DNA of 64,000 bases from an uncultured Chloroflexia bacterium (lineage in GTDB: Bacteria; Chloroflexota; Limnocylindria; Limnocylindrales; CSP1-4), in assembly GCA_963712745.1 (NCBI GenBank), contig CAVQJC010000011.1, forward strand, positions 289,617 through 353,616, read 5' to 3'. The notes under the pieces were generated by a model. The model was not told the origin of the DNA. It did not search any database and worked only from the letters and a program-made list of their open reading frames with translations. Within the stretch, counting starts at the first letter, position 1; each line of letters begins with the position of its first letter. This document shows, piece after piece, positions 38,698 to 58,168 of this stretch. The position numbers were made by a program, and so were the translations under genes.

Positions 38698-38881
38698 GAA
38701 CATCCTATATTCGAGCACAAACGAGCATGTTCTGTCAACCTGCCGAGTGACAGGGACCCGAATGCCGCAAACGAGAACGGGCCATCGGTTACTTGCCGTG
38801 GTCGAGAGCGTAGTCGAGGATTTCCGCGAGACCCCGATGCCACTAGACCACGTGGCAGGATCTCCGGTCTGGGGGGCCGTG

Positions 38882-39727
38882 ATGTCGGATGCGCCCAGCG
38901 GACAACCAGTGATCCCTCGCGCGCGCCCAGCCTCGGGGAGACCGGATGCTGCCGACGGGGCAAGCGCGGGCGACTACCGACGGGTGGTCCTCGTTCCTCG
39001 CCGACCATCACTCCTGCGCGAGTACGAAGCGGCCGAGCAGCGGCAGCGCGATGAGCTCGACGATTTCATCGACGAGCTGTTTGGCGGCACGACCGATGAG
39101 CCGCCTGGTCGCTTCGACGCGATCCTCGTCGTGGTCGGACTCGTCCTTGTCGCATGGGCCGGCATCCTGGGCGGCCCTGCCCTCGCTGCGTGGGTCGGCA
39201 TCGCCGGGATCGTGCTGGGTCTGGCGCTCCCGATACGGGCCGCTCTGCGCAAGTACGGTTCCTTGAGGACCGGGGTGAAGCGAGGGCGCCTCTTCGGCGG
39301 CGGGCAGATGCTTGACGCTTCGCATCCGGCCACGGTCGCCCTGATCGACGCCTACGCGCACCTCATCCAGATGTCATGCCTTCAAGGCACCGGCGAGCCC
39401 AAACGAGCGGTGGCGGCCGGCCACATGGCCGTGACGGAGGTTGCCAACTACCTCGATGGCAAGCCCCCCGAGGGCCCGGCCAAGACTCGCTTCGTGACCA
39501 TGCGCACGGAGGCCATCGAGGCTCTCTCGCGACAGATGATGCGGTCGCACGATCGCTGGGCGGCGAAGACGGCTGCCGAGCAGTCGCTGGGCACCGAGAC
39601 TGGCCTCGAGCCGGCTGGGGCATCGCAGTTCGAGTCGCTGAACGCACTGGCACGCAGCGGTGCCGTCGCAGAGTTGGAGGCATTGAACCACCAGCTCCGG
39701 CGAGAGACCGCCGATGAACCGCACTGA
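38882..39727 (+). CDS. Hypothetical membrane protein (two adjacent TM helices); start uncertain (38696/38762/38882)
   Basis: ORF with G/C-rich third positions. Hydrophobic stretch 'FDAILVVVGLVLVAWAGILGGPALAAWVGIAGIVLGLALPI'. Confidence 0.5.
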   Translation: MSDAPSGQPVIPRARPASGRPDAADGASAGDYRRVVLVPRRPSLLREYEAAEQRQRDELDDFIDELFGGTTDEPPGRFDAILVVVGLVLVAWAGILGGPALAAWVGIAGIVLGLALPIRAALRKYGSLRTGVKRGRLFGGGQMLDASHPATVALIDAYAHLIQMSCLQGTGEPKRAVAAGHMAVTEVANYLDGKPPEGPAKTRFVTMRTEAIEALSRQMMRSHDRWAAKTAAEQSLGTETGLEPAGASQFESLNALARSGAVAELEALNHQLRRETADEPH

Positions 39728-41372: not shown

Positions 41373-41386
41373 GCGGCTCCGCCGAC

Positions 41387-41782
41387 TCAGGGACGCAGGA
41401 CGATCACGCGCCAGTCCACCAGCCCCTCGGTCGGGCACGATGCGCTCGTGGTGATGAGGATGCGTTCGTCGGACTCCCCGGCCTCCACATGGTCGTTGAT
41501 GCCTGCAAAGCCACACGGTGCATATGGGGCCGGCGCGCGCAAGGTGAGCGAGTCCTGCCACGAGTGGACCAACCCCTTCTCGGTGGCCAGCGCGTACTCG
41601 GCGTAACCCTCGTTCTCGAGCTCGTCAAGTACGCCTGGTACCTGGCTCCAGAGACCACGCATCGGGAACGAGTCGTCGACCACGACGAACACACGTTCTG
41701 TGGGGCGTGAAAGCACGATCAGCGCCGCGACAAGGCCGAAGGCGACGAGCACACCGATGAGGAAGATGGCGAGCGGACGCAC
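41387..41782 (-). CDS. Hypothetical membrane-anchored protein (131 aa)
   Basis: GTG start 6 nt after the upstream stop. N-terminal TM helix, then 'VFVVVDDSFPM'. Confidence 0.5.
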   Translation of the reverse strand: MRPLAIFLIGVLVAFGLVAALIVLSRPTERVFVVVDDSFPMRGLWSQVPGVLDELENEGYAEYALATEKGLVHSWQDSLTLRAPAPYAPCGFAGINDHVEAGESDERILITTSASCPTEGLVDWRVIVLRP

Positions 41783-41788
41783 CCGGAG

Positions 41789-43483: not shown

Positions 43484-43513
43484 GTGTCGTTCTCCCTCCG
43501 CTGCCGTGCCTGA

Positions 43514-44746
43514 CTACTCTGTCGTTGGGTCGGCCCCAGGGCCGACCTCGAGGTCGAGCATGCCCGTGCTGGCCGCGCTCCGCTCATGCCTCTCGATCGC
43601 CTTCTCCGCTTCGATCGTGAGCTTGTCCATCTCGACGATGGAGCTGGCCATCTCCGGCAGTGCTTCACGGCGGTAGCGTGAGATCTCGTCGAGCGCGATG
43701 TTGATGTCGCGGAAGGCCGACTGCAGGGCGTCCATGTCGAGCATCGCGCTCGATGCCTGCTGGTGGATCTGGCTGCCTTGCGACTTGAGTCGCGCGGCAG
43801 TACCGGCGATCATGTCCGACGTCGTCCGGTTGAGCGCCTCGACCTTGTCCAGCACCACCTTCTGGTGGGCTACGGCCATGGCCACCGACACGGCCACCTG
43901 GAGGGCACTGATGGTGACGTCCAGGGCGCGGTTGACGCCACGGACGAGTTCACGGTTGTTGCGCACGATGATGGCGGTCGCGAGCACGCCCTGCTGATTC
44001 ACCGCCAGTTGCTGCTGCAGGTCCATCGTCCGCTGTCGCAGCACGAAGAGCAGCTCCTCCTCGATGAACGCCCGTCGAGGGTCGTCAGGTCCGATCTCGC
44101 GGTCGAGCTTGGCGCTGATGGCGGAGTCGAGCGCCTGGGCGAGTGCGACCTGCTCGGTGATCGTGACCGTCAGCTCGCGCATGTTCTTCTGATCGTCGTT
44201 GAGCGTGACGTTGTCGCGTTTCAGTTGGTCACGCCCACTCTCGAGCGAGCGGATGATGGCGTCGATGACGCCTTGCGAGGTCTCGAACTGCATGAAGTAG
44301 CGCTGCAGCGGCGTGCCCACGCCGGGAATCAGCCCAAGCGTGCGATTGAACCAGCCCGGGTCGAGGTTGAGCGAGGTTGGGTCGAGCTTCTCGACCTCGA
44401 TGCGCAAGTCCGAGAGCGACTTGGCCACGGGCCCGCCCTCCTCGCTCTCGCGAGCGAGGTCGCGCAACGGCGCCTGCAGCAGCCGGCTTCGCGTGGCGGC
44501 ACGTCGTTGCAGGTCCCGGCCCATGCCTTCGACAGCTTCGATCGAGGTGACGCGGGCATCCTGGTCGTCAGGATCGATAGTGATGAGCTGGTCAGCCACC
44601 GCAAGCGCACGCTCCTGGAGCTCATCGCTGACATCGGGTTCAGGAACGATGACCTCCGCCTTCGTGCCCTCAACGTCAAGGTCCAACCGCAGGGCCAGAG
44701 CCGTCTCGTCGTTGGCGTTGCCGTGCGTATCGCTCGCATCACTCAT
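43514..44746 (-). CDS. TelA/YaaN-family toxic-anion-resistance protein
   Basis: TelA-like length and coiled-coil layout: 'LDPGWFNR.LG.IPG', 'YF.QFETSQGVIDAII.SL..GRDQLKRDN'. Confidence 0.85.
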   Translation of the reverse strand: MSDASDTHGNANDETALALRLDLDVEGTKAEVIVPEPDVSDELQERALAVADQLITIDPDDQDARVTSIEAVEGMGRDLQRRAATRSRLLQAPLRDLARESEEGGPVAKSLSDLRIEVEKLDPTSLNLDPGWFNRTLGLIPGVGTPLQRYFMQFETSQGVIDAIIRSLESGRDQLKRDNVTLNDDQKNMRELTVTITEQVALAQALDSAISAKLDREIGPDDPRRAFIEEELLFVLRQRTMDLQQQLAVNQQGVLATAIIVRNNRELVRGVNRALDVTISALQVAVSVAMAVAHQKVVLDKVEALNRTTSDMIAGTAARLKSQGSQIHQQASSAMLDMDALQSAFRDINIALDEISRYRREALPEMASSIVEMDKLTIEAEKAIERHERSAASTGMLDLEVGPGADPTTE

Positions 44747-44805
44747 CGTTGCTCTCCCTCATGGTCGGGCCTTGGTCGTCTCGGTAGTGCATCACATCGA
44801 CGAGG

Positions 44806-45558
44806 TCATGTCGCGGCGTACCTGCCCGCTCGGTCGGCCAGCTCCTTGAGCGCATCCATGGCGGCTTCCGCGTCCTGCGGAGCGACGCCGATGGGTGCGT
44901 CTGCGAGTGCGGTGGAGGTGCGATCGAGCAGCGTCATGGCCGACTCATTCTGGGCCAGCAAGTAGGTCACCTTGGCCTCCTGTGCCGTGGCCAGCGCGCG
45001 ACGATCCTGGAGCGAGGTGATCTCAGCCTGCGCCCCGGATGCGTCGCCGGCGGACAGCTCTGCGAGCCGGACGTCGATGTAGTCGGTGTCGATGGCACTG
45101 ACGCTCTTCTTGGCGATGGCGACCTCGCGCAGGTTGGTGACGACTGCCAGGTAGACCTGCTGGGCGGTCGAGCGGTAGCGTGCGTACGTCAGCTCCCCGG
45201 TGTCGAGGCGGCTCCCGAGGATGGCCACCAGGGTGTCGCGCTTCTCGCCGATGGCATGGAGCTGGTAGGCGGGGCGCGGGTCCTCGAGTCGGTCCAGGTC
45301 GTCAGACAGCGCACGCAGCTCGATCGTACTGACCTCAGGCAGCCTCGGCGCCTGGAACTGGAGCCGGCGCAGTGTCCCGGTGGCGGACAGGGTGATCGGC
45401 CACAGGACGATGGCGACCGCGCCGATGCCGATGACGACGATCGCCAGCAACGTGGGCGGTTCGAGGAGCAGCAGGATCAGGACGACCGCCACCACGACCG
45501 CGGCGACGGCGATCCAGGACGGCGGATATCCGGCGACGGCGCGCCACCACGTTCTCAT
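44806..45558 (-). CDS. XpaC-like (5-bromo-4-chloroindolyl-phosphate-hydrolysis family) membrane protein
   Basis: Two N-terminal TM helices plus a helical C-domain. Its position directly upstream of telA mirrors B. subtilis xpaC-yaaN. The assignment rests on architecture and context only. Confidence 0.5.
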   Translation of the reverse strand: MRTWWRAVAGYPPSWIAVAAVVVAVVLILLLLEPPTLLAIVVIGIGAVAIVLWPITLSATGTLRRLQFQAPRLPEVSTIELRALSDDLDRLEDPRPAYQLHAIGEKRDTLVAILGSRLDTGELTYARYRSTAQQVYLAVVTNLREVAIAKKSVSAIDTDYIDVRLAELSAGDASGAQAEITSLQDRRALATAQEAKVTYLLAQNESAMTLLDRTSTALADAPIGVAPQDAEAAMDALKELADRAGRYAAT

Positions 45559-45796
45559 CTCGATACCCCTTCTGACAATCGAACCCAAGTGTGGTGCATG
45601 CAAGGGCCTTTCGGCAGGGAACAAGGAAGTGCGACTGCCCGACGGCAACGGCCGGCTGAACCTCCCTCGAGCCGCGCCGGTGCCGAAGTAGTCCCGGCGA
45701 CCGCCGGCTGAAGGGCGTGGCCGAGATCGGCGGCCACCCCGAACTCAAGCCGCCGCGCGCGATCGGGAGTGGTTCTCGTCCGTCCACTCTCTCTCA

Positions 45797-46150
45797 GTGC
45801 ATGCTGTGCACGAGTCCGACCCAGCGATCGTCCGATCCTGCAGGGGCCTGTGCACCCCGTGCACGAGCCCGTCCCGTCCGCTCTGGCCGTGCACCCAGTG
45901 CACGAGTCCGACCCAGCGATCGTCCGATCCTGCAGGGGCCTGTGCACCCCGTGCACGAGCCCGTCCCGTCCGCTCTGGCCGTGCACCCAGTGCACGAGTC
46001 CGACCCAGCGATCGTCCGATCCTGCAGGGGCCTGTGCACCCCGTGCACGAGCCCGTCCCGTCCGCTCTGGCCGTGCACCCCGTGCACGAGTCCGACCCAT
46101 CCGTCGCCCGATCCTGCAGGGGCCTGTGCACCCCGTGCACGAGCCCGTCC
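45797..46150. repeat. Non-coding tandem array: 92-bp unit x ~3.9, each unit carrying two GTGCAC-N3-GTGCACGAG modules
   Basis: The period was measured from CAGGGGCC at 45841, 45933, 46025 and 46117. 92 is not a multiple of 3, and all six frames are open across the array. Confidence 0.95.
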
Positions 46151-46218
46151 AGAATGTCCGGTGCCGATCACCCGGCGGGTGGGAACCCGCAGCGCGGGGC
46201 CACGACGACGGCTGCCCG

Positions 46219-46252
46219 GTCGAGTTCGGTCACCCGGTGATCGGCTGGTCGG
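46219..46252 (+). repeat. Left copy of a 34-bp imperfect direct repeat (GTCGAGTTCGGTCACCCGGTGATCGGCTGGTCGG)
   Basis: 32/34 identical to 54951..54984. Both copies are preceded by CTGCCCG. Confidence 0.85.
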
Positions 46253-46345
46253 ATGTCGTCAACGCAGCCCCATGGGACGCTACCTACGGGTCGACTGACC
46301 TTGGCCCGCCGCCGCACCCGGCGGTCGATCGAGGCCATACGACCC

Positions 46346-46374
46346 TTGAGTGGTGGAGTGCCAGCGGCTAGGCT
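46346..46374 (+). promoter_or_regulatory. Candidate promoter TTGAGT-N17-TAGGCT for the first STAND gene
   Basis: Hexamers and spacing read from the sequence. The -10 lies 35 nt upstream of ATG 46410, with a GAGAGGA SD. Confidence 0.45.
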
Positions 46375-46409
46375 GGCCAGACGCCAATCATCTAGACGCG
46401 AGAGGACGT

Positions 46410-49400
46410 ATGACTCAGCGGCAGCCCTCATCGCGGCGGGGTCAGGCGGACGTACGGCAGACGCGAACGGGCTCCGCCGCCAGCGGTCGGCGCGCGCCCC
46501 GACTGGCCACCTTCATGGTCGTCGACCTGGCCGGATCGGACGCCGTCCTGGCGGGGCTCGGTGAGGGCCGTGCGGAGGCTTCGCGCCCGGCCTACGTCAC
46601 GCTCCTGCGCAACGCGGTCGCGGCACACGAGGGGAGCGAGCTGGTGCTGCTGGACGACCGAGCGTTGGTCGCCTTCGCCACCCCCTCGTCGGCGGTGGCT
46701 TCCGCCGTCTCGATCCAGCGAGCGGCCGAGCGGCACAATCGGTCCCACGACGATCGGCTCGATCCCCGCATCGGCATCCAGTTGGGCGAAGCCACCGAGC
46801 CCGTCTTCGCCTCAGGAGGTGGCGAGTACGTCGCACAGCCCGCGATCCAGGCCCGCCAGCTGTGTGAGGCTGCGCTCGCCGGTCACATCCTGGTGTCTGA
46901 ATGGGTCTCCGCCCTGGCTCGGCCGGAGCCATCGCTCTCCTTCGAACGAGCTGGGCTGATCGACCTCTCCGGGGCCCCGGAGCCAGTACCGACGTTCGAG
47001 GTCCGATTCCAGGACGCCCCGGACCGCCGGCCCTCGCTCCCGCCCGAGCTCGCCGCCCGGCCCAGGGGTCGCTGTTCCTTCGTGGGGCGGTCGTCGGAGC
47101 GAGAGCGGTTGCGCGCCGTGTGGAAGGCGGCGGCTGGCGGCAGGCGCCGGCTGGTCTTCGCAGTGGGCGAGCCCGGCATCGGCAAGAGCCGTCTGGCGGC
47201 GGAGTTCGCCATCGAGGCACATGCTGACGGCGCGGTCGTGTTCTCCGGCCGCTCGTTCGAGGAATCGGTCGTCCCGTACCAGCCGTTCGTCGAGGCGCTG
47301 CGCCAGTACGTCAACGACTGCGACCCGGTCGAGCTCGAAGCGCAGCTCGGTGCCGATCCGTCACCGCTGGTCACGCTGCTCCCTGAGCTGGCGGCACGTC
47401 TGCCGGGCCACACGGAGCTGCAGGCTGCGGAGGGCGAGCGTCATCGGCTCTTCGATGCCGTGGCCACACTGCTCTCGACCGTCTCGACCTCCTCGCCCGT
47501 CCTGCTCGTACTCGACGACCTGCAGTGGGCCGATCCGGCCACGCTGCTCCTGCTCAAGCATGTCGTACTCGACCCGCGGCCGGCCTCGATGCTCATCCTC
47601 GGGCTCTATCGCGACACCGAGGTCGGCGAGTCGCATCCACTGGCCCGGCTGCAGGCCGACGTCGAGCGCGACTTCACCGTCGACCGAGTCACCCTCACCG
47701 GCCTTGCCGACGCCGACGTCGCGAGCATGCTCGACGAGATGTTCGGTTGGTCGCCGCCGGTCACGGTCGCCCACGGCCTGCGCGAGGAGACCGAGGGCAA
47801 CCCGTTCTTCCTGCAGGAGGTCATCCATCAGCTCCACGAGACCGGCATCGCGGACGACCGCGAACGCCTGCTGCGGGGGCACCTCGTCTCGGATGGGATG
47901 GGGGTTCCCGAGCGGGTCCGGGACTTCGTGGCCAGGCGCATGCAGCGGCTTTCGACAGGCGCGCTCGAGATCCTCGCGGTCGCGGCCGTGGTGGGCACGG
48001 AGTTCGGCCTCGACATCCTCGCTAGCGTCCTCTCGGCAGACCCCGACCGACTCGTCGACGATCTCGAGGAGGCCGTCGAGGCGCGGCTCGTGGTAGAGGT
48101 TCCCGGTCGGCTCGGCACGTACTCCTTCGCCCATGCATTCTTCCAGGGCGCTCTCCATGAACGTCAGGGCGCCAATCGGCGTGCGCTGCTCCACGCGCGT
48201 GTGGCTGAGGCCATCGAGGATCTGCAGCCCGATGACCCCACGACGCTCTCAGAACTCGCGCGCCACTACGCGTTGACCGCCGGTCGCTACGCGCAGAAGG
48301 TCGTCCACTACGGCGCGGCTGCCGGCGATCGTGCGTTCGCGCAGCTAGCCTTCGAGGACGCCATCGCGGAGTACACCCGTGCGCTCGACGCACTCCCGCT
48401 GGTGGCTACTGCCCCCGAGTCGACCCAGGCCAACCTGCTCGTGCGCTTGGGTGAAGCCCAGACGCGTGTCGGTGACGCCGCGGCGGCCAAGGGATACTTC
48501 CTCGCGGCGGCCGATCTCTGCGTCAGGGAGAACTCGTTCGAACCCCTCGCGCGCGCCGCACTGGGCTACGGGGGGACCGGCAAGTTCGGAGCGATCTTCG
48601 ACCCATTCGGAGTCGTCAACGAGACGCTGGTCGATCTGCTCGAGCACGCCATCGCGGCTTGCCCGAGTGGCCAGGAACACGACCGCGTCCGACTGCTGGG
48701 CTGGCTGGCCCAGGCGCTCTACTGGTCGGACCAGGACGAGCGCCGGCATGTGCTGAGCCAGGAGGCGCTCGACACCGCACGCCGGATCGGCGAGCCCGCG
48801 GTCATCGCCCACGCCCTCCACAGCCGGCATGTCGCGCTGTGGGGGCCCGGCCACCTGCCTGAGCTTCGGGCGGCCGCCGAGGAGATGCTCGCGCTAGGCC
48901 GGTCCCTGGGCGATCGCGACATCCAGCTGAAGGCCTACACCTGGCTCATCACCGACGCCCTGCAGACAGATCCCATCGAGGTCGTGGACGGGTACATCGC
49001 GGACTATGCGGGCCTCGCAGAGGAGTTGCATCGACCGTACTTGCTGGGGTACGCCGAATCGATGCGCGCGGCGCGAGCGCACCTGGAAGGGCGATTCGAC
49101 GACATGATGCGGTCGATGTCTGCGCAACTCGCGCACTCCGAGGGTGCCGATGCTGATCGCGCGCAGGAGGCCCATCGCTGGCAGATGGGACTGTTCATGC
49201 TGGACCTCGATCGTGTCGACGACGCCTTGATAGGCACCCTCGCGGAACAGAGTGCACGCTATCCGGGACTGACCTTCGACGTGATGCTGGCGCTGGCCTA
49301 CGCCATCGTCGACCTCCGCGAGGAAGCCTGGGTGAAGCTGGCCCGGCTGGCGCCCGAGGATCTGGCCTCGATCCCCAGGGACTGCATGTGGGCCGGCACG

Positions 49401-49841
49401 ATGGCCATGCTCTCGAGGGTCGTCTACAAGCTTGGGGCGGTCGAGTACGCGCGACCCCTCTACGACCTCTTGGCCCCCTACGCTGAGCGCAACAGCATCT
49501 GGGGTTCAGGATTCATCGTCTTTGGCCCCACCAGTCGGTTCCTGGGCCTGCTCGCGACCACCTTCGGCGAACCGGACCTGGCCATCCCTCGCCTCGAACA
49601 CGCGATCCAGCGCTGCCAGGACCTCCACTCGCCCCCACTGGCGGCACGAGTGAGGACCGACATGGCGAGAGCGTTCCTGGCACGTGGCGCCGACGGCGAC
49701 GTGGAGCGGGCCCGTCGGTCGCTCGAGGACGCCCGGCTCACCGCTGCGGAGCTTGGCTTGTCCGGCCTGGGACAGGAGGTAGTCGACCTCCTGTCGACTG
49801 CCACGCTGCCGGGCGCGCGCACGGCCTCGGATGCCACTTGA
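46410..49841 (+). CDS. STAND-type NTPase: class-III-cyclase-like domain + P-loop NTPase + TPR/helical-repeat region; no C-terminal HTH seen
   Basis: 'VVDLAGS...LLDDRALVAF...RIGIQLGEA' cyclase-homology layout. Walker A 'GEPGIGKSRL'. Walker B 'VLLVLDDLQWAD'. Long helical-repeat tail. Confidence 0.85.
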   Translation: MTQRQPSSRRGQADVRQTRTGSAASGRRAPRLATFMVVDLAGSDAVLAGLGEGRAEASRPAYVTLLRNAVAAHEGSELVLLDDRALVAFATPSSAVASAVSIQRAAERHNRSHDDRLDPRIGIQLGEATEPVFASGGGEYVAQPAIQARQLCEAALAGHILVSEWVSALARPEPSLSFERAGLIDLSGAPEPVPTFEVRFQDAPDRRPSLPPELAARPRGRCSFVGRSSERERLRAVWKAAAGGRRRLVFAVGEPGIGKSRLAAEFAIEAHADGAVVFSGRSFEESVVPYQPFVEALRQYVNDCDPVELEAQLGADPSPLVTLLPELAARLPGHTELQAAEGERHRLFDAVATLLSTVSTSSPVLLVLDDLQWADPATLLLLKHVVLDPRPASMLILGLYRDTEVGESHPLARLQADVERDFTVDRVTLTGLADADVASMLDEMFGWSPPVTVAHGLREETEGNPFFLQEVIHQLHETGIADDRERLLRGHLVSDGMGVPERVRDFVARRMQRLSTGALEILAVAAVVGTEFGLDILASVLSADPDRLVDDLEEAVEARLVVEVPGRLGTYSFAHAFFQGALHERQGANRRALLHARVAEAIEDLQPDDPTTLSELARHYALTAGRYAQKVVHYGAAAGDRAFAQLAFEDAIAEYTRALDALPLVATAPESTQANLLVRLGEAQTRVGDAAAAKGYFLAAADLCVRENSFEPLARAALGYGGTGKFGAIFDPFGVVNETLVDLLEHAIAACPSGQEHDRVRLLGWLAQALYWSDQDERRHVLSQEALDTARRIGEPAVIAHALHSRHVALWGPGHLPELRAAAEEMLALGRSLGDRDIQLKAYTWLITDALQTDPIEVVDGYIADYAGLAEELHRPYLLGYAESMRAARAHLEGRFDDMMRSMSAQLAHSEGADADRAQEAHRWQMGLFMLDLDRVDDALIGTLAEQSARYPGLTFDVMLALAYAIVDLREEAWVKLARLAPEDLASIPRDCMWAGTMAMLSRVVYKLGAVEYARPLYDLLAPYAERNSIWGSGFIVFGPTSRFLGLLATTFGEPDLAIPRLEHAIQRCQDLHSPPLAARVRTDMARAFLARGADGDVERARRSLEDARLTAAELGLSGLGQEVVDLLSTATLPGARTASDAT

Positions 49842-49866
49842 GCGGCGACGAGGAGCGGGCTAGGCT
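49838..49866 (+). promoter_or_regulatory. Candidate promoter TTGAGC-N17-TAGGCT for the second STAND gene; the -35 overlaps the stop codon of the first
   Basis: Same hexamers and spacing as 46346..46374. GAGGGAGGG SD before ATG 49904. Confidence 0.45.
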
Positions 49867-49903
49867 GGCACTCACGCGGGACGCTACGTGCGAGGGAGGG
49901 CGG

Positions 49904-52900
49904 ATGACGCCGAGGCAGCCCCGGTTCGATGTCGATGAGGCCGATCTACCGTCGGCTGAACCTGCATCCCTGGGCGACGGTCACGGGCCATCCCAGCTGG
50001 TCACCTGCCTGGTCATCGACCTCGCCGAGTCGAACGCGGTCCTTGAGCGGCTCGGCGAGGGGCGTGGGGATGCCTCGCGTAGCGCATACCCGACGCTTCT
50101 GCGCAACGCTCTTGTCGCTCAGCATGGCCGGGAGCTTTCACGCCGCGACGATCGCGTGCTGGCTGCGTTCGACGTGCCTACGGAGGCCGTGGCCTGTGCC
50201 GTGGCCGTGGTGCGCTCAGCCGAGCGGCACAACCGGCGGCAGGCTGGCAGGCTCGACGTCCGCGTCGGGATCCAGATCGGCGAAGCTGACGAAGCGGCGT
50301 TGACCTCCGAGCGCGGCGACCTCATCGCTCGTCCCGCGATACAAGCAGCGCAATTGTGCGCTGCAGCCGCCGACGGCCAGATCCTGGTCTCCGATCTGGT
50401 GGCGGTCCTGACCCGCGCCGACTTGTCCATCCGCTTCGAGCGCGCCGGCCTCCTCGACATCGCCGAGGCGACCGATCCGTTGCCCACCTTCGAGGTGGTC
50501 CACCGCGAGCTTCCCAGCGACCGCCCGCCGTTGCCGCCGGGGCTGGCTGCGCGGCCCTCCGGCCGCTGTTCGTTCGTGGGCCGCGGAGCGGAGCGCGAAC
50601 ACCTGTTGAGGCTGTGGGCCGCGGCCGCCGACGGCGAGCGCCGCCTGGTCTTCGCGCTGGGCGAGCCCGGCATCGGCAAGAGCCGTCTGGCGGCCGAGTT
50701 CGCGGCCGAAGCGCACGCCGACGGGGCCGTCGTACTCTCCGGCCGCTCGTTCGAGGAGTCGATCGTCCCCTACCAGCCATTCGTCGAGGCCCTGCGTCAG
50801 TACGTCGCCGACTGCGATCCTGCCGGGCTCGAGGCACAGCTGAGCCCCGACCCGACCGCGCTCCTGACGCTCGTGCCGGAGCTCGCGGCTCGCATCCCGT
50901 CGCCCGCGACCCGCGAAACGAACGAGGGCGATCGCTACCGGCTATTCGATGCGGTCGCCGCCTTGCTCTCGACCATCTCCGTCAGTTCGCCGGTGCTGCT
51001 CGTGCTCGACGACCTGCAGTGGGCCGATCCGGCCACACTGCTCCTGCTCAAGCACATCGCGCTCGATCCACGCCCCGCCTCGATGCTCATCCTTGGGCTC
51101 TACCGCGACACCGAGGTCGGGATGTCGCACCCGCTGACCCAGCTGCAGGCCGACGTCGAGCGGGATCTCGCCATCGACCGCGTCTCGCTGGCCGGCCTTG
51201 CCGACGCCGACGTCGCCAGCATGCTCGACGAGATGATCGGCTGGTCACCACCATCAGCCGTGGCCCGTGGGCTACGCGAAGAGACCGAGGGCAATCCGTT
51301 CTTCCTGCAGGAGGTCATCCACCAGCTCGACGAGTCGGGTATCACGACCGACCGCGAACGCCTGCTTCGCGGGCACCTCGTCTCGGGGGGGCTCGAGGTA
51401 CCCGATCGCGTCCGGGACTTCGTCGCCCGGCGCCTGCAGCGTCTTGCGCCCGCTGCGCTCGAGATCCTCGGCGCGGCCGCGATTGTGGGCACGGAGTTCA
51501 GCCTCGACGTCCTTGCACGGGTGCTGGTGGCCGATCCGAGCCGACTCGTCGACGACCTCGAGGAGGCCGTGGAGGCACGCCTGGTCATCGAGATCCCCGG
51601 TCGCGCCGGCACGTACGCCTTCACGCATGCGCTCTTCCAGCAGACGCTCCACGACCGGCACGGCAGCAACCGACGGGCCTCGCTCCATGCGCGCGTGGCC
51701 GATGCCATCGAGACGCTGCACCCGGACGATCCATCGGCGCTGTCGGACCTGGCCCGGCACTACGCACTGACCGCCGGACGCTACGCGGAGAAGGTCGTCC
51801 TCTACGGTGCAGCGGCTGGTGACCGCGCCTTCGCGCAGCTGGCGTACGAAGATGCGCTACAGGAGTACGGCCGGGCGCTCGACGCGCTTCCGCTGGTGGC
51901 TTCGGCCGACGAGCTGACAAAGGCTGACCTGCTGGTGCGTCTGGGTGAGGCCCAGACGCGTGTCGGCGACGCGGCAGCTGCCAAGCGGTCCTTCCTCGCG
52001 GCCGCCGAACACTGCGTCGACGAGGGCTCGTCCAGCATCCTCGCTCGGGCTGCACTGGGCTACGGGGGCACCGGCAAGTTCGGCGGCATCTTCGATTCCT
52101 TCCAGGTGGTCAACGAGACCCTGGTGGGTCTGCTCGAGCGTGCCATCGAGGCCTGTCCGCACGACGAGCAAGCCACACGCGTCCGACTGCTGGGACGCCT
52201 GGCACAGGCGCTGTACTGGTCGGACGACCGGGAGCGCATGCTCACGCTGAGCCAGGAGGCACTCGACTCCGCTCGCTGCATCGGCGACCCTACGGTCATC
52301 GCTCATGCCCTCCACAGCCGCCATGTCGCGCTGTGGCATCCCGACCACCTCCCGCAGATCCGCGCGGCTGCCGAGGAGATGCTCGCGCTGGGCGAGTCGG
52401 AGGGCGACCGGGACATCCAGCTGAAGGCCTACACCTGGCTCATCACCGACGCCTTGGAGACCGATCCATTCGAGGTCGTGGACCAGTACGTCGCGGGCTA
52501 TGTCGGGCTTGCCGAGGAGCTCCACCGGCCCTACCTGCTTGGATACGCGGACGCCATCCGCGCAGCACGCGCACATCTCGAGGGTCGTTTCGACGAGATG
52601 GCCCGGCTGATGGGCGCCCAGCTCGCCCATACCGATGGGGCCTACGCGCGCCGCGCGAAGGAGGCGCACCGCTGGCAGCTGGGGTTGCTCCTGCTGGACA
52701 TCGGTCGTGTCGACGATGCCCTGATCGTCGAGCTCTCCGAGCGTGCGGCCCGTCACCCGGGGCCCACGTTCAGGGCGATGCTGGCGTTGGCCTACGCTAC
52801 AGTGGACCGCCGGGACGAAGCCGCCGCGGAGCTGGCCGGGTTGGCCAACGGAGACCTTGGCTCGATCGCGAGGGATTGCATGTGGGCAGCCACGCTGGCC

Positions 52901-53329
52901 ATGCTTGCGCGGGTCGTCTCTAGGCTCGAGGCGGTCGAGCACGCCCGTTCCCTGTACGACCTGCTTGCGCCCTATGCCGACCGCAACTGCCTGTGGGGCT
53001 CCGGGTTCATGATCCTGGGACCCATCAGCCGCTATCTGGGCAGGCTGGCCACGACATTCGGCGAGCCCGACCAGGCTCTGGCGCACCTCGAGCATGCACT
53101 TGGACGCTGCCACGAACTGGGCTCGCCTCCGCTGATCGCGAGGACGAAGGTCTCGATGGCGCGGGCGCTGTCACGACGCGGCCTCGAAGGCGATGAGGCG
53201 CGCGCGCGCATCCTGCTCGCGGAAGCGAGCCGTAGTGCTTCCGAGATGGGGATGCCCGGGCTGGCCGATAGTTGCAGGCAAGTGTTCGCGGAGATCGGAC
53301 CCCGCGTGAGCGAGGCCCCAGCCCGATGA
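49904..53329 (+). CDS. STAND-type NTPase paralog (cyclase-like + P-loop + TPR)
   Basis: Colinear with 46410..49841 and highly similar by eye (for example SRLAAEFA.EAHADGAVV.SGRSFEES.VPYQPFVEALRQYV). Same Walker motifs. Confidence 0.85.
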   Translation: MTPRQPRFDVDEADLPSAEPASLGDGHGPSQLVTCLVIDLAESNAVLERLGEGRGDASRSAYPTLLRNALVAQHGRELSRRDDRVLAAFDVPTEAVACAVAVVRSAERHNRRQAGRLDVRVGIQIGEADEAALTSERGDLIARPAIQAAQLCAAAADGQILVSDLVAVLTRADLSIRFERAGLLDIAEATDPLPTFEVVHRELPSDRPPLPPGLAARPSGRCSFVGRGAEREHLLRLWAAAADGERRLVFALGEPGIGKSRLAAEFAAEAHADGAVVLSGRSFEESIVPYQPFVEALRQYVADCDPAGLEAQLSPDPTALLTLVPELAARIPSPATRETNEGDRYRLFDAVAALLSTISVSSPVLLVLDDLQWADPATLLLLKHIALDPRPASMLILGLYRDTEVGMSHPLTQLQADVERDLAIDRVSLAGLADADVASMLDEMIGWSPPSAVARGLREETEGNPFFLQEVIHQLDESGITTDRERLLRGHLVSGGLEVPDRVRDFVARRLQRLAPAALEILGAAAIVGTEFSLDVLARVLVADPSRLVDDLEEAVEARLVIEIPGRAGTYAFTHALFQQTLHDRHGSNRRASLHARVADAIETLHPDDPSALSDLARHYALTAGRYAEKVVLYGAAAGDRAFAQLAYEDALQEYGRALDALPLVASADELTKADLLVRLGEAQTRVGDAAAAKRSFLAAAEHCVDEGSSSILARAALGYGGTGKFGGIFDSFQVVNETLVGLLERAIEACPHDEQATRVRLLGRLAQALYWSDDRERMLTLSQEALDSARCIGDPTVIAHALHSRHVALWHPDHLPQIRAAAEEMLALGESEGDRDIQLKAYTWLITDALETDPFEVVDQYVAGYVGLAEELHRPYLLGYADAIRAARAHLEGRFDEMARLMGAQLAHTDGAYARRAKEAHRWQLGLLLLDIGRVDDALIVELSERAARHPGPTFRAMLALAYATVDRRDEAAAELAGLANGDLGSIARDCMWAATLAMLARVVSRLEAVEHARSLYDLLAPYADRNCLWGSGFMILGPISRYLGRLATTFGEPDQALAHLEHALGRCHELGSPPLIARTKVSMARALSRRGLEGDEARARILLAEASRSASEMGMPGLADSCRQVFAEIGPRVSEAPAR

Positions 53330-54936
53330 GCGAGTCTGGAGCGGCGGGCGCCGCACTCACCATCGCGGACGAGGTGGAGCGCATCGCACCAGGCGCGACC
53401 TGGCGGGAGCTGTGCCGATGGCCGCCCGACGTCTTCGCAGCCACCGGTTCGATCCTGGCGGACTCGGGCGCCTACCGCAGCGTTGTCTGCCCACCGGAGG
53501 GGAGGTCTTGGCCGCCGCCGATCGATGGCGATGGCGAGACGGAGTGGGAGCGGGCGATCCCGCGCGCGGGTGGCGAGTGGGCCGAGTGGTCCTCGGCGTC
53601 GGAGCTCATCGGCGATCCGCCGGCGCCTGTGGACCGGTTCGTCACTGCCCTTGACGCGGCCGGCGACACGCCCATCACTGAGCTCGACGAGCCGCCCAGC
53701 TGGGAGACGGTGACGGCGCTGTTCGGTCTCCATGCCATGGCCGACGAGGCCAGTGCCGGGGCTGGTCTCGACTCGGCCACGAAGTTCCAAAGAGTGGCCC
53801 TCGAGACGCTCGAGGCGACCGGCTCGCTCTCGCGCCTGCCCACCGATCGCGTGCGCGTGCTGCCCAAGCTCAGGCCCCCCGAATCCGGGATCACGCTGCG
53901 CTCGATCTCTCACAACCTTGCGCTCGATCGTTCGGAGGTGCGCACTACCTGGCTGCGGGCACCGGCACCACGGTCCAACGCTCCGGCCTCACAACGTGGT
54001 CGTCTGACGCTCCTGCTCGTGCCTTTCCCGTCCAACGTGCATGCCAATGACTTCCGTCCCGTCCGCGGTCCGCTGCTGAACATGGACAGCAGCCGCTACG
54101 GCTTCTTCGAGTACGCTCCCACCGAGCCGCTCGACCTCGAACGCATCATCGCTCTGGTGAGGTCCGCGCAGCTGCGTGTCGGTGCCATCGACGCGGTCGT
54201 GCTGCCGGAGGCCGCCCTCGACGAATCGGTCGTGGCGGATCTCCAGGAGCTCGTGTGCGGGGTCGGAGTCCCATATCTCATCGCCGGCGTCCGCCGGGCG
54301 GCGACCGAGGACGAGCCGTTCGCCACGAACTACGCCTACTTTGGTGGCGCCGGCTGGCACGCGGCCCAGCACAAGCACCACCGCTGGTGCCTGGACCCGA
54401 CCCAGGTGCACCAGTACCACCTTGGCGCGGCGCTCGAGCCGAACCACCGCTGGTGGGAGGCCATCCGCATCCAGCGGCGGAGTCTCAACTTCATCACCAC
54501 CGCCGAGCCTGAGGGCCTGACCATCTGCCCGCTCGTGTGCGAGGACCTCGCGCGGCCGGACCCGGTAACCGACGTCATCCGGGCAGTGGCGCCGACGCTG
54601 GTGGTCGGGCTCCTGCTCGATGGGCCGCAGCTGGTGGCTCGCTGGCCGGCACGCTACGCCAGCGTGCTCGCGGACGACCCGGGCAGCTCAGTGCTGACGC
54701 TGACCGCGCTGGGCATGGCCTGGCGCAGCCAGCCGTCGGGCTTCGACGCATCCCGCGTCATCGCCCTGTGGAAGGACCCGCACCGCGGCCTCCAGCAGAT
54801 CGCCCTCGCTCGGGATGCGCGAGCGGTAGCGTTGACCGCGCACCGCCGTGAGGTGGAGGTGGTCTCGGCCGACGGACGTACGAGCTCGCATCCGGTCTCC
54901 GAGCTGGTCCTGTCGGGGCTGGAGCAGATCGATTGA
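53326..54936 (+). CDS. Hypothetical protein (536 aa), translationally coupled to the STAND paralog; the C-terminal half has a possible nitrilase/C-N-hydrolase-like Glu-Lys-Cys pattern
   Basis: ATGA start/stop overlap at 53326-53329. G/C-rich third positions. Segments 'IDAVVLPEAAL', 'AQHKHHRW', 'GLTICPLVCEDL'. The functional guess is weak. Confidence 0.6.
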   Translation: MSESGAAGAALTIADEVERIAPGATWRELCRWPPDVFAATGSILADSGAYRSVVCPPEGRSWPPPIDGDGETEWERAIPRAGGEWAEWSSASELIGDPPAPVDRFVTALDAAGDTPITELDEPPSWETVTALFGLHAMADEASAGAGLDSATKFQRVALETLEATGSLSRLPTDRVRVLPKLRPPESGITLRSISHNLALDRSEVRTTWLRAPAPRSNAPASQRGRLTLLLVPFPSNVHANDFRPVRGPLLNMDSSRYGFFEYAPTEPLDLERIIALVRSAQLRVGAIDAVVLPEAALDESVVADLQELVCGVGVPYLIAGVRRAATEDEPFATNYAYFGGAGWHAAQHKHHRWCLDPTQVHQYHLGAALEPNHRWWEAIRIQRRSLNFITTAEPEGLTICPLVCEDLARPDPVTDVIRAVAPTLVVGLLLDGPQLVARWPARYASVLADDPGSSVLTLTALGMAWRSQPSGFDASRVIALWKDPHRGLQQIALARDARAVALTAHRREVEVVSADGRTSSHPVSELVLSGLEQID

Positions 54937-54950
54937 CTGCCCGCAGGCCA

Positions 54951-54984
54951 GTCGAGTTCGGACACCCGGTGACCGGCTGGTCGG
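54951..54984 (+). repeat. Right copy of the 34-bp imperfect direct repeat
   Basis: GTCGAGTTCGGACACCCGGTGACCGGCTGGTCGG. It starts 15 nt after the stop of CDS 53326..54936. Confidence 0.85.
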
Positions 54985-55078
54985 GCGACCGGCCACGTGC
55001 CCTGAGAAGACTCCCCGCGTCCGAGACAGGGAGGGGCGGCGCCCGTGGGTCCGGGAGCCGCCTGGAGGAGGTCGCATA

Positions 55079-55094
55079 GGGGCGTTGGCGCCCC
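55079..55094. terminator. GC hairpin GGGGCG-TTGG-CGCCCC between convergent genes; possible bidirectional terminator
   Basis: Read from the sequence. No clear U-tract. Confidence 0.3.
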
Positions 55095-55102
55095 GGCATG
55101 CC

Positions 55103-56415
55103 CTACGCCAGCAGCTCTTGGGCCACGGTAGCGGCCGTGGCGGCGTCCTTGGCGAAGCCGTCGGCCCTGATCTCGGCCGCGAACTCGTCGGTCACCGGGA
55201 CGCCACCGACCATGACCTTGGCCGCGGGCGCCGCCGCGCGCATGGCGCTGACCGCGTCCTTCATGCCCATCATCGTGGTGGTCAGGAGGGCGCTGATGCC
55301 GACGATGTCGGCGCCGTGCTCCACCGCGCTGTCGGCGAAGGCCGCGGGCCAGCCGTTGGTGACGAGATCGACGATCTCGTGCACGGTTTCATACAACTCG
55401 ATGGTGTTCTCGATGGGCGTTTCGGGCAGAACGTAGTCGTGGCTGGGGGAGGCGACATAGCCGCCACCGGGCATCATGACCTCCAGGACCTCGCGAGTCC
55501 TGCTCCTCACGAGGTCGGGAGTGCCCTCGAGGACGAACTTGGTATCGATGCAGCCGTTCATCAGGATCCGGTCGCCGAACGCCGCCTTCAGTTCAGACGG
55601 CTCCATGCCCCCGGCGGATGGCTGCAGTGCCTGCAAGCCATCCAGGCCGATCTCGATCATCGTGGGGATGAGGGGCGCAAAGCCGCCGTAGCAATGCATC
55701 ATCACCTTCAGGCCGTAGTCATGACCGAGCTCCACCAGGCGCTTCAGGTGCGGGGCGAAGAAGCGACGGAAGGTGGCTTCGCTCATCAGCGGCCCGTTCA
55801 TGCCGCCGAAATCGTTGCCGATGAAGAAGATGTCGATGAGATCGGCCGCCGCGTCGAAGATGCGCTCGCTGACCCCGAAGTAGTAGTCCACGATGTCCTC
55901 GTGGAGGGCTTCCACCAGCTCGGGTTCCTCGTACATCTTGACGAGGAGGTTCTCCATGTCGAGCAGGTCGATGGCGTCGCGCCAGAAGGGGGACCAGTCC
56001 CCCCAGGATCGCGTACTCCCCCTGCCAGTCTCCGATCTCCGCCCGGATGCCAGCGGCACTCATCCAGGCCGGATCGGGCCAGGGATAGTCGTGCACCTCT
56101 CGTAGCGTGGCGCCGGCTAGCGGGTGACTCCGGGGCATGCCACAGCCGTAACCGTGCCGCTCCACGCCGAAGGGCAAGCGCTACGTGAAGCCCGGGGCCA
56201 GGTTCGCATCGGGGCCGGATCCGATAGGCCCCGCGTAGGTCGCGTGCACGCGCCTGAAGTCATCTCCCAGGAAGACCGACAGGGCTTCGTCATCCGGCAA
56301 CCCCAGGTGGTCGAACATCGCCTGCCTGGTCTCAGGGGCAGCGCCGAACCATGCTGGCACCGCGGTCCGGTTCCTCGAAGGCGAAGGCTGCCAACACGCG
56401 GTCCCTGGATGTCAT
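55103..56415 (-). pseudogene. Decayed uroporphyrinogen-decarboxylase-family (MtaA/CmuA-like) methyltransferase fused to the distal part of a B12-binding domain
   Basis: Reconstructed reading MTSRDRVLAAFAFEEPDR|VPAWFGAAPE...GFT*RLPFGVERHGYG...EYAILGG|DWSPFWRDAIDLLDMENLL... It needs a frameshift near 56357-56368, read-through of TAG 56181-56183, and a frameshift at the C6 run 55999-56004. The tail 'ADIVGISALLTTTM...VMVGGVPVTDEFAAEIRADGFAKDA' is B12-domain-like, but no DxHxxG is visible. Confidence 0.8.
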
Positions 56416-56464
56416 GGTGCCCCATCAGCCACGTCAGTCCCCCTCGCTGCGCCCCGTATCCACG

Positions 56465-58168
56465 CTAGAACAGGCCGACCGGGCGTCCCTGCTCGTCGAT
56501 GTCGACGTTCTCACCGGCAGGACGGCTGGGCAGGCCCGGCATCGTGCGCATGTCGCCCGCGAGCGGGTAGATGAAGCCCGCGCCCGCGGCCAGCTTGACC
56601 TCGCGGATGGGCACCCGGAAGCCGGACGGCCGGCCCAGCAGCGCCGGATCGTGCGACATCGAGAGGTGGGTCTTGGCCATGCACACCGGCAGGTGGCTGT
56701 AGCCCAGCCGGTCGTACTCGGCCAGGGCCTTGGCCGCGGCCGGCGCGAGGTCGATGCCGTCGGCCCCATAGACCTTCGTGGCGATGGTCTCGATCTTCTC
56801 GAGCAGCGGCATCGCGTCGGGGTAGAGCAGCCTGAACTCGGACGGCTCGGACGCCGCCTCCCACACCGCCGCGGCCAGCGCTTCTGACCCGGCCCCGCCG
56901 TCGGCCCAGTGGGTGGTCACGACCGCATCGCGGGCGCCGGCTGCCAGCGCCACCTCGCGGATGACCTCGAACTCCGAGGCGGCGTCACCCGGGAAGGCGT
57001 TGATGGCCACCACCACCGGCACGCCGTACTGGCGCACCAGCTCGATCTGGGCGGCGAGGTTCTGGCCACCCGCGCGCACCGCCTCGGGGTCCTCCGCCAG
57101 CAGCGCCGGGTCGAGCGGCTTGCCGGCCACGATGCGACCCACGCCACCGTGCATCTTCAGGGCCCGCACCGTGGCCACCACCACCGCGGCATCGGGCGCC
57201 ATGCCCGAGGCGCGGCACTTGATGTCGAAGAACTTCTCTGCCCCCATGTCCGCGCCGAAGCCGGCCTCGGTGACGACGATGTCGCTGGTCGCCAGGGCGA
57301 CCCGGTCGGCGAGGATGGAGCTGTTGCCATGGGCGATGTTGGCGAAGGGCCCGGCATGGACGAAGGCCGGCCCGCCCTCGAGGGTCTGCAGCAGGTTGGG
57401 CTTGATGGCATCGAGCAGGAGCACGGTCATGGCCCCGGCCACGCCCAGGTCCTCGGTCGTGACCGCTTTCCCCGACCGGTCGGTGGCGAGCACGATGCGA
57501 CCCAGCCGCGCGCGCAGGTCGAAGACGTCGGTGGCGAGGGCCAGGATGGCCATGACCTCGCTGGCCACGGTGATGACGAACTCGCTCTCGCGCGGCACCC
57601 CGTTGACCTTGCCGCCGAGGCCGATGTTGACCTTGCGCAGGGCGCGGTCGCTGATGTCGACCACCCGCGGCCAGGTGATCGAATAGGGGTCGATGTCGAG
57701 CGGATCGCCATGGTGGAGGCTGTTGTCGAGGAAGGCGCTCGCGAGGTTGTGCGCGGCGCCGATGGCGTGCACGTCACCGGTGAGGTGGAGGTTGAAGTCC
57801 TCCATGGGGATGATCTGCGAATAGCCGCCGCCGGCGGCCCCGCCCTTGATGCCGAAGACCGGGCCCAGCGAGGGCTGGCGGATGGCGACCGCGGCCGTGT
57901 GGCCGATGCGGTTGAGACCCTGCACCACACCGACGGTGGTGGTGGTCTTGCCCTCGCCCAGCGGGGTCGGCGTGATGGCGGTCATGACCACGTACCGGCC
58001 GCGCGGGTTCTCGCGCTCGACACGTCTGAGCCCCTCGAGCGTGACCTTGGCCTTGGTCGCGCCGTAGGGTTCGATCTCATCGGGCCGCAGCCCGAGCTCG
58101 GCAGCGATGTCGGTGATGGGCCGGGGGGTGACCGAGCGGGCGATGTCGAGGTCGGTCAGGGCGGTCAT
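56465..58168 (-). CDS. fhs: Formate--tetrahydrofolate ligase
   Basis: 567 aa. 'TAITPTPLGEGKTTTTVG' P-loop region and family-typical sequence throughout. Confidence 0.95.
   Translation of the reverse strand: MTALTDLDIARSVTPRPITDIAAELGLRPDEIEPYGATKAKVTLEGLRRVERENPRGRYVVMTAITPTPLGEGKTTTTVGVVQGLNRIGHTAAVAIRQPSLGPVFGIKGGAAGGGYSQIIPMEDFNLHLTGDVHAIGAAHNLASAFLDNSLHHGDPLDIDPYSITWPRVVDISDRALRKVNIGLGGKVNGVPRESEFVITVASEVMAILALATDVFDLRARLGRIVLATDRSGKAVTTEDLGVAGAMTVLLLDAIKPNLLQTLEGGPAFVHAGPFANIAHGNSSILADRVALATSDIVVTEAGFGADMGAEKFFDIKCRASGMAPDAAVVVATVRALKMHGGVGRIVAGKPLDPALLAEDPEAVRAGGQNLAAQIELVRQYGVPVVVAINAFPGDAASEFEVIREVALAAGARDAVVTTHWADGGAGSEALAAAVWEAASEPSEFRLLYPDAMPLLEKIETIATKVYGADGIDLAPAAAKALAEYDRLGYSHLPVCMAKTHLSMSHDPALLGRPSGFRVPIREVKLAAGAGFIYPLAGDMRTMPGLPSRPAGENVDIDEQGRPVGLF

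What the first reader, a model, noticed from the sequence alone, without database searches (positions are those of the whole stretch)
46212..54984. A 34-bp imperfect direct repeat (plus a shared CTGCCCG) precisely brackets the STAND module
GTCGAGTTCGG(T/A)CACCCGGTGA(T/C)CGGCTGGTCGG occurs at 46219-46252, upstream of the first promoter, and again at 54951-54984, 15 nt after the third gene's stop. Identity is 32/34, both copies have the same orientation, and each is preceded by CTGCCCG. The enclosed 8.7 kb contains exactly the two promoters and three genes. This suggests site-specific insertion, excision potential, or a duplication junction. In other words, the module behaves as a discrete cassette rather than core sequence.
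Basis: seen in the sequence. Interest (0 to 1): 0.6.

Follow-up and report, generated by a model that had tools for sequence, protein, structure and literature searches.

The report
Direct repeat brackets accessory STAND islet
A real, genome-unique 34-base direct repeat sits at both ends of an 8.7-kb three-gene block found in only one of 49 species of the genus, so the block is probably an inserted, recombinase-less gene islet, although no empty site or excised form could be shown.

Summary
The 34-mer lies at 46219-46252 and 54951-54984, matches at 32 of 34 bases, and runs in the same orientation. These are its only two copies in the 4.2-Mb genome. It is absent from 48 congeneric genomes and from the public collections scanned.

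It encloses exactly two paralogous STAND NTPase genes and a translationally coupled 537-aa gene. I show here that this third gene has a nitrilase-superfamily fold.

The block is accessory. The third gene occurs in 1 of 49 genus genomes. Relatives have different, shorter junctions at this locus. Homologous STAND-plus-partner pairs sit in unrelated neighbourhoods elsewhere. Three islets containing a homologue of the third gene are bounded by duplicated 3' ends of tmRNA, tRNA-Ser or tRNA-SeC and contain no integrase.

My best reading (about 0.45) is an attL/attR-like scar of a decayed or trans-mobilised integrative islet.

Four results count against it:
- No recombinase lies on the contig.
- No single-copy "empty" 34-mer was found anywhere.
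- The left edge of the lineage-specific DNA lies about 590 bp outside copy 1.
- The closest module-bearing relatives lack such repeats.

The main rival (about 0.3) is a by-product of local rearrangement at a visibly unstable locus.

The parts
46212..46218 (+). CTGCCCG heptamer directly abutting repeat copy 1; probable degenerate 5' extension of the repeat
46219..46252 (+). Direct repeat copy 1 (putative attL-like site). It contains the 11-bp palindrome TCACCCGGTGA and lies 93 nt upstream of the -35-like hexamer of STAND1.
   Evidence: (D14)
46346..46374 (+). Promoter-like element P1 (TTGAGT-N17-TAGGCT), conserved upstream of the L022 STAND gene
46410..49841 (+). STAND1: degenerate cyclase-like N-terminus + AAA_16 P-loop NTPase + TPR-like C-terminus. 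Start taken at the ATG with a Shine-Dalgarno-like GAGAGGA upstream.
49838..49866 (+). Promoter-like element P2 (TTGAGC-N17-TAGGCT), overlapping the STAND1 stop codon
49904..53329 (+). STAND2: tandem paralogue of STAND1 (70% aa identity, no gaps over 1122 aa; 3494-bp period)
53323..54936 (+). Gene 3: 537-aa protein overlapping the STAND2 stop by 7 nt. N-terminal helical domain plus a C-terminal nitrilase-superfamily fold, with invariant Glu295/Lys350/Cys405.
54937..54943 (+). CTGCCCG heptamer starting immediately after the gene 3 stop codon, 7 nt upstream of repeat copy 2
54951..54984 (+). Direct repeat copy 2 (putative attR-like site). It lies about 25 nt inside the point (~55010) where homology to congeners resumes.
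45806..46150 (.). Context: 92-bp x 3.8 non-coding tandem array between the left edge of lineage-specific DNA (~45627) and repeat copy 1
   Evidence: (D1)
55103..56421 (-). Context: decayed URO-D-family methyltransferase fused to a partial corrinoid (B12-binding) gene. It lacks 423 bp that are present in congeners.

Best explanation
The two 34-mers (about 41-48 nt if the CTGCCCG extension is included) are the left and right junction scars, attL- and attR-like, of an 8.7-kb gene islet inserted by recombination across a short shared sequence. The insertion could have been made by a tyrosine-type site-specific recombinase supplied in trans or since lost. It could also have been a Campbell-type single crossover of a circular intermediate.

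The islet consists only of its cargo: two STAND NTPase paralogues with their own promoters, plus a translationally coupled nitrilase-fold protein. That makes it today a recombinase-less, CIME-like remnant.

The two substitutions split the repeat into identity blocks of 11, 10 and 11 bp. Spontaneous RecA-dependent loss should therefore be rare, and excision would need a dedicated recombinase.

Shown: the repeat, its uniqueness, the exact bracketing, the accessory status of the block, and att-bounded homologous islets elsewhere.

Inferred: that the repeat arose at insertion, and that a recombinase made it.
For: 1. The repeat is real, directly oriented, and present only twice in 4.2 Mb.
2. It starts right after the last stop codon and ends upstream of the first promoter. 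It encloses three genes and nothing else.
3. Gene 3 is in 1 of 49 genus genomes. Congeners show module-free junctions at this locus.
4. Homologous STAND+gene-3 pairs occur in many unrelated neighbourhoods.
5. I scanned 62 gene-3 loci, including the window. After excluding L121, whose repeat is a coding paralogue, strong direct repeats (50 bits or more) flank the gene in four loci. The inverted-orientation control gave no hit above 36 bits. Three of the four are duplicated 3' ends of a tmRNA (L029), tRNA-Ser (L110) or tRNA-SeC (L108) gene. The fourth is this window.
6. None of these three intervals holds an integrase. L029 keeps a truncated Phage_integrase ORF next to the tmRNA gene in the neighbouring islet of the same array.
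7. This matches the published definition of a cis-mobilizable element: attL and attR retained, integration genes lost (PMC5704250).
Against: - No integrase or other recombinase lies in the block or on the 401-kb contig. The genome has only four PF00589 hits, all on other contigs.
- No relative or public contig carries a single-copy 34-mer that could be the unoccupied target.
- The lineage-specific DNA starts at about 45627, roughly 590 bp left of copy 1, with a 92-bp tandem array in between. The repeat therefore does not coincide with the left comparative breakpoint.
- The closest module carriers (L022 at the same DeoR locus, L028, L134, L135) lack flanking repeats.
- The 34-mer is not tRNA- or tmRNA-derived.
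- GC content does not differ from the flanks.
Confidence: 0.45

Rival explanations
1. The repeat is a by-product of local rearrangement. One route is the remnant of the first about 40 nt of a second tandem copy of the 8.7-kb unit, most of which was later deleted. Another is a short templated patch copied from 8.7 kb upstream while the right-hand junction was being repaired. On this reading the repeat has no role in mobility.
For: The locus is visibly unstable:
- an old 3494-bp tandem duplication produced STAND1 and STAND2
- a 92-bp x 3.8 array lies next to copy 1
- 423 bp are missing from the neighbouring corrinoid/URO-D genes
- at least three different gene orders exist between DeoR and fhs within the genus

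Copy 2 lies only about 25 nt from the right comparative breakpoint. No recombinase is nearby. Most close homologous modules have no flanking repeats.
Against: No similarity continues beyond the repeat on either side, so the deletion end point would have to fall just 34 nt into the second copy. The repeat boundaries coincide neatly with the gene-block boundaries, from the base after the stop codon to just upstream of the promoter. A random deletion or patch does not predict this. Templated patches this long are not an established outcome of bacterial end joining (my own knowledge).
Confidence: 0.3
2. The two 34-mers are functional cis-elements, such as operator sites for a dimeric regulator centred on the palindrome TCACCCGGTGA. 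One lies upstream of the operon and one downstream, perhaps allowing DNA looping.
For: Copy 1 contains an 11-bp perfect palindrome, TCACC-C-GGTGA, which occurs only 6 times in the genome. It lies about 95 nt upstream of the promoter-like element. A DeoR-family regulator is encoded 7.5 kb away.
Against: - The palindrome is broken in copy 2 (ACACCCGGTGAC).
- The duplicated second promoter, the homologous L022 promoter region, and the flanks of L023, L028, L029 and L110 all lack the motif.
- 34 nt of near identity is far more than an operator needs.
- These STAND proteins have no detectable DNA-binding domain.
Confidence: 0.08
3. The repeats are the two halves of a gene that the insertion split, with 34 nt of its coding sequence duplicated.
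For: Both copies are open in one frame, and one of the two substitutions is synonymous in that frame. The central 23 nt also occur in a conserved WEFGHPVSG coding motif in three unrelated genomes.
Against: - The frame has no partner ORF at copy 2. At copy 1 it runs only through the non-coding 92-bp array, where all frames are open.
- No paralogous peptide exists anywhere in the genome.
- The three foreign hits share only the residues forced by the search pattern, and their flanking residues differ.
Confidence: 0.04

Closest known systems
Cis-mobilizable elements (CIMEs) and decayed integrative islets bounded by attL/attR, as defined for streptococcal ICE/IME tandems (PMC5704250)
   Same: Direct repeats at both ends, cargo genes only, and no integration or transfer genes inside. 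The block is accessory within the genus. Three islets with gene-3 homologues (a STAND+gene-3 pair in L029, a divergent LuxR-type STAND in L110, no STAND in L108) sit in tRNA- or tmRNA-bounded intervals, one of them in a tandem array with a decayed integrase.
   Different: The repeat here is not the 3' end of a tRNA, tmRNA or recognisable gene. No cognate integrase, partner element or unoccupied attB has been identified. The left repeat is not at the comparative breakpoint. Mobilisation is untested.
ssrA (tmRNA)-specific genomic islands in tandem, such as the Dehalococcoides vcr islands (PMC3146451; title and abstract only)
   Same: Locus L029 shows the same pattern. The tmRNA 3' end occurs as four copies (the gene's own end plus partial copies at about 5151, 5795 and 11984), delimiting successive islets. 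The last islet is a STAND+gene-3 pair homologous to the window's module.
   Different: The window's own repeat has no similarity to tmRNA, and no tmRNA gene lies in the window. The only tRNA is 18 kb away.
Integron gene cassettes (ORF followed by attC, arrays of cassettes)
   Same: A compact unit with a recombination-site-like repeat that starts immediately after the last stop codon, no recombinase inside, and identical orientation of the flanking sites.
   Different: No IntI or attI is present. The 34-mer has no R''/L''-L'/R' imperfect palindrome or GTTRRRY core, and no significant hairpin (z = -0.66). The unit is 8.7 kb with its own promoters, far larger than typical cassettes.
Transposon or IS target-site duplications
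   Same: Direct repeats flanking inserted DNA.
   Different: Target duplications are typically 2-14 bp (my own knowledge). There are no terminal inverted repeats inside the 34-mers and no transposase.

Membership tests
CIME / decayed integrative element | Direct repeats (attL, attR) at both ends of the element | tested here: met
   32/34 direct repeat at 46219-46252 and 54951-54984, unique in the genome
CIME / decayed integrative element | No integration or transfer genes between the att sites | tested here: met
   Only two STAND NTPases and a nitrilase-fold protein lie inside. There is no PF00589 hit on the contig. Serine recombinases were not searched for separately.
CIME / decayed integrative element | An unoccupied target (single-copy att core) exists in genomes lacking the element | tested here: not met
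   No 34-mer in 48 congeners at up to 3 mismatches, or by BLAST of 64 nt. None in genome contigs or metagenome contigs. The module-free junctions of G063, G001 and G010 contain nothing similar. Sampling has no same-species genome, so this is weak negative evidence.
CIME / decayed integrative element | Excision or circularisation by a cognate integrase acting on the att sites | not testable with these tools
tRNA/tmRNA-targeting genomic island | The flanking repeat is the 3' part of a tRNA or tmRNA gene | tested here: not met
   ARAGORN finds only a tRNA-Gln at 28434-28508. Rfam finds nothing at either copy. The feature is met for homologous islets L029, L108 and L110.
Integron cassette | attC imperfect palindrome with conserved core sites, plus an integron integrase and attI nearby | tested here: not met
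   Folding of both copies on both strands is no better than shuffles. No tyrosine recombinase lies on the contig.
Dispersed REP-like or MITE repeat | Many copies scattered through the genome | tested here: not met
   Exactly two copies in the genome
Nitrilase superfamily (for gene 3) | Alpha-beta-beta-alpha sandwich fold with a Glu-Lys-Cys catalytic triad | tested here: met
   The AlphaFold model has pLDDT 81.7. The Foldseek top 50 are all nitrilase-superfamily enzymes, with E down to 1e-6. Glu295, Lys350 and Cys405 are invariant in 32 homologues. No Pfam or PDB sequence-level hit. Mapping these three residues onto the triad is my inference; catalysis is untested.

The most novel reading that the evidence does not exclude
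The STAND + nitrilase-fold pair is the cargo of a family of minimal, recombinase-less cassettes that are moved in trans between short specific sites: a non-tRNA 34-mer here, and tmRNA or tRNA 3' ends elsewhere. These cassettes can accumulate in arrays, as at the tmRNA gene of L029. That would be a cassette-capture system outside integrons, and it may mark the pair as a new mobile defence or signalling module.
Probability: 0.1. Interest if true: 0.7.

Novelty: new member of a known kind. Interest (0 to 1): 0.35.

Why it matters
If the repeat is an att scar, it marks the exact limits of a self-contained three-gene unit. The unit pairs STAND NTPases with an uncharacterised nitrilase-fold enzyme found at 383 loci in species-representative genomes across several phyla, and it shows that this unit moves between genomes as one piece. 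That makes the module easy to clone and test as a unit, for example for anti-phage or signalling function in a laboratory actinobacterium. It also gives a concrete 48-nt substrate for looking for the recombinase. If the repeat is only a rearrangement relic, the finding is an ordinary footprint of an unstable locus.

Tried and rejected
- **Dispersed repeat:** rejected. There are two copies only.
- **Structured RNA or terminator:** rejected. There is no Rfam hit, folding z-scores run from -0.66 to +0.38, and no terminator-like site lies at either copy.
- **tRNA- or tmRNA-derived att site:** rejected for the window.
- **Homologue of the 34-mer in the flanks of the closest modules (L022, L023):** local alignments are no better than shuffles, p = 0.05-0.46.
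- **A third CTGCCCG-containing motif (GACTGCCCG) at the left comparative breakpoint, 45633-45641:** not significant. 188 of 300 shuffles scored at least as well.
- **Gene 3 as a hidden recombinase:** rejected. It has a nitrilase fold.
- **Coding relic of a WEFGHPVSG-motif gene:** the three foreign hits match only where the search pattern forces a match.
- **L121 flanking repeat:** it proved to be the Walker-B coding region of two STAND paralogues, not an att site (my reading of the sequence).
- **Compositional evidence for foreign origin:** none.
- **Same-species contigs from other samples:** exact look-ups of TelA and Fhs returned nothing.
- **STAND adjacency across distant gene-3 loci:** tblastn with STAND1 was too insensitive to judge this. 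It missed the Pfam-confirmed STAND of L110.
Full report
**1. The observation**

Reading the sequence and searching for the pattern confirm two copies of a 34-mer at 46219-46252 and 54951-54984. Both lie on the + strand. They differ at two positions (T/A at base 12, T/C at base 23). None of 100 dinucleotide-preserving shuffles of the window gave a match.

In the whole 4.2-Mb assembly (20 contigs) these are the only two copies, at up to 3 mismatches. A sensitive blastn of both intergenic regions against the genome returns only the reciprocal hit (E = 5e-8) above noise. The repeat is therefore real, non-random and not a dispersed element.

CTGCCCG abuts copy 1. At copy 2 it is separated by CAGGCCA and starts at the base after the gene 3 stop codon (TGA, 54934-54936). 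The heptamer occurs 0.26 times per kb per strand, so its presence next to both copies is probably part of the repeat, about 41-48 nt with a 7-nt indel. No similarity continues further on either side.

**2. What is enclosed**

The interval holds three genes and two promoter-like elements:
- STAND1 (46410-49841) and STAND2 (49904-53329). They are 70% identical, gap-free paralogues with a 3494-bp period.
- Each STAND protein has a weak cyclase-like N-terminus, an AAA_16 NTPase domain and a TPR-like tail.
- Each is preceded by TTGAG(T/C)-N17-TAGGCT.
- Gene 3 (53323-54936) overlaps the STAND2 stop codon.

Gene 3 has no Pfam, NCBIfam, PADLOC or PDB sequence match. It does have more than 5,000 homologues and 383 loci among species-representative genomes of Actinomycetota, Myxococcota, Acidobacteriota and other phyla.

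A model built on 32 homologues (pLDDT 81.7) matches only nitrilase-superfamily enzymes in the PDB. Glu295, Lys350 and Cys405 are invariant. Gene 3 is therefore a divergent nitrilase-fold enzyme with an extra N-terminal helical domain. It is not a recombinase.

**3. The locus in relatives**

- Gene 3 is present in 1 of 49 genomes of the genus.
- Three congeners (G063, G001, G010) have DeoR, about 2.3 kb, the vWA-TelA-XpaC-like block (window 41402-45626), and then fhs (window 56465 onward) after only 14-366 bp.
- G013 and G009 have DeoR, 2.8 kb, then intact corrinoid, URO-D-type methyltransferase and fhs genes.

Homology on the right of the module resumes at about 55010, roughly 25 nt after copy 2. 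On the left it ends at about 45627. That is roughly 590 bp before copy 1, with a 92-bp x 3.8 tandem array in between.

None of the module-free junctions contains anything like the 34-mer. A BLAST of 64 nt around copy 2 gives only noise in all 48 congeners.

A metagenome contig from a relative (L022; 83% nucleotide identity in the E1-dehydrogenase and DeoR genes) carries one STAND gene plus gene 3 directly beside DeoR. It is about 75% identical to the window's module and has no 34-mer.

The stretch between DeoR and the C1-metabolism genes is thus a rearrangement hot spot. The module is an accessory occupant of it in two lineages.

**4. The module elsewhere**

STAND+gene-3 pairs with the same 4-nt overlap occur in unrelated neighbourhoods (L028, L029, L134, L135, L136). 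L023 shares the two-STAND form.

I scanned 62 gene-3 loci, including the window, for matches between the 6 kb that lies 3-9 kb upstream of the gene and the 1.5 kb downstream. Five loci had direct matches of 50 bits or more. The inverted-orientation control never exceeded 36 bits.
- L121 is a coding paralogue (the STAND Walker-B region) and was discarded.
- The window is one of the remaining four.
- L029, L110 and L108 are duplicated 3' ends of a tmRNA, tRNA-Ser and tRNA-SeC gene respectively.

In L029 the tmRNA 3' end occurs at four places (the gene's own end plus partial copies at about 5151, 5795 and 11984) and delimits successive islets. The first islet keeps a truncated integrase ORF next to the tmRNA gene. 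The last contains only a STAND gene and gene 3.

In L110 the interval between tRNA-Ser and its 56-nt partial copy holds a cyclase-AAA-TPR-LuxR STAND protein, LtrA and the gene-3 homologue.

None of these intervals contains an integrase. This fits the published description of cis-mobilizable elements and their tandem accretion (PMC5704250).

Flanking repeats are not a constant property of the module, however. Among the six close modules with both flanks available, only the window and L029 have them.

**5. Mechanism**

The most economical reading is that the 34-mers are junction scars of an insertion made by recombination across a shared short sequence. The islet is now recombinase-less. I put this at about 0.45.

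Weaknesses of this reading:
- No tyrosine recombinase lies on the contig.
- No unoccupied target was found anywhere.
- The left comparative breakpoint does not coincide with copy 1.
- The repeat is not tRNA-derived.
- Composition is not deviant.

The main rival (about 0.3) is a footprint of local rearrangement, either a truncated second tandem copy or a templated patch at the right-hand junction. It is plausible because the locus also carries an old 3.5-kb tandem duplication, a 92-bp array and a 423-bp loss in the adjacent methyltransferase/corrinoid genes.

An operator role (about 0.08) is weakened for three reasons. The palindrome TCACCCGGTGA is broken in copy 2. It is absent from the second promoter. 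It is absent from all homologous modules examined.

The split-gene idea (about 0.04) has no supporting ORF or paralogue.

Whatever its origin, the two substitutions leave identity blocks of only 11, 10 and 11 bp. Spontaneous homologous deletion should therefore be rare (inference from general knowledge of minimal homology requirements).

**6. What could not be done**

No reads could be laid on the locus to look for circular or deleted forms. No same-species genome is available in the collections.

**7. Verdict**

The "discrete cassette" reading is supported by distribution and by analogy with att-bounded homologous islets. Insertion at, or excision through, the 34-mer is unproven.

This is a new member of a known kind: a small genomic islet with flanking direct repeats. 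Interest is moderate to low. The nitrilase-fold identity of gene 3 and the tRNA/tmRNA-bounded homologous islets are useful by-products.

Noticed in passing
window 53323-54936: Gene 3 has no Pfam or PDB sequence match, but it folds as a nitrilase-superfamily enzyme with invariant Glu295/Lys350/Cys405 and an extra N-terminal helical domain. The family has more than 5,000 members and 383 loci in species-representative genomes across several phyla. Some Gaiellaceae members carry N-terminal PAS domains.
   Followed up: partly
L029 2208-12012: A tmRNA gene is followed by three further partial copies of its 3' end (at about 5151, 5795 and 11984), which delimit successive small islets. The first islet has a truncated integrase ORF (2713-3423, minus strand). 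The last holds only a STAND gene and a gene-3 homologue.
   Followed up: partly
L110 4863-12268 and L108 5609-12381: Gene-3 homologues lie between a tRNA gene and a partial downstream copy of it: tRNA-Ser with a 56-nt, 91% copy in L110, and tRNA-SeC with a 65-nt, 100% copy in L108. Neither interval has an integrase. L108 has a second tRNA-SeC at 17755-17846.
   Followed up: partly
window 55103-56421 (minus strand): The URO-D-type methyltransferase and the corrinoid-protein gene are fused by loss of 423 bp that congeners retain (L016 6154-6576: the methyltransferase 3' end, the spacer, and the B12-binding cap domain). In a long-read MAG some of them could be assembly errors.
   Followed up: partly
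window 45806-46150: The 92-bp x 3.8 tandem array (98% matches) has weak relatives (66-70% identity) at three other places in the genome: C17:281411-281641, C20:632071-632345 and C15:33276-33530.
   Followed up: no
window 38978-40530: The genes for the 343-aa and 552-aa proteins are 97-99% identical to G029:C56:2905-4657. The rest of the locus is about 82% identical to congeners. This suggests recent exchange of that segment between species of the genus.
   Followed up: no
window 38727-56465: The stretch between DeoR and fhs exists in at least four gene orders within the genus: the G063 type, the G013 type, the L022 type and this window. It is a rearrangement hot spot.
   Followed up: partly
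L022 9130-9276: A 48-aa ORF (MAKELGVSPAKVKKTLAALGIEPDF...) follows gene 3 in the closest module-bearing relative. It has no counterpart in the window.
   Followed up: no
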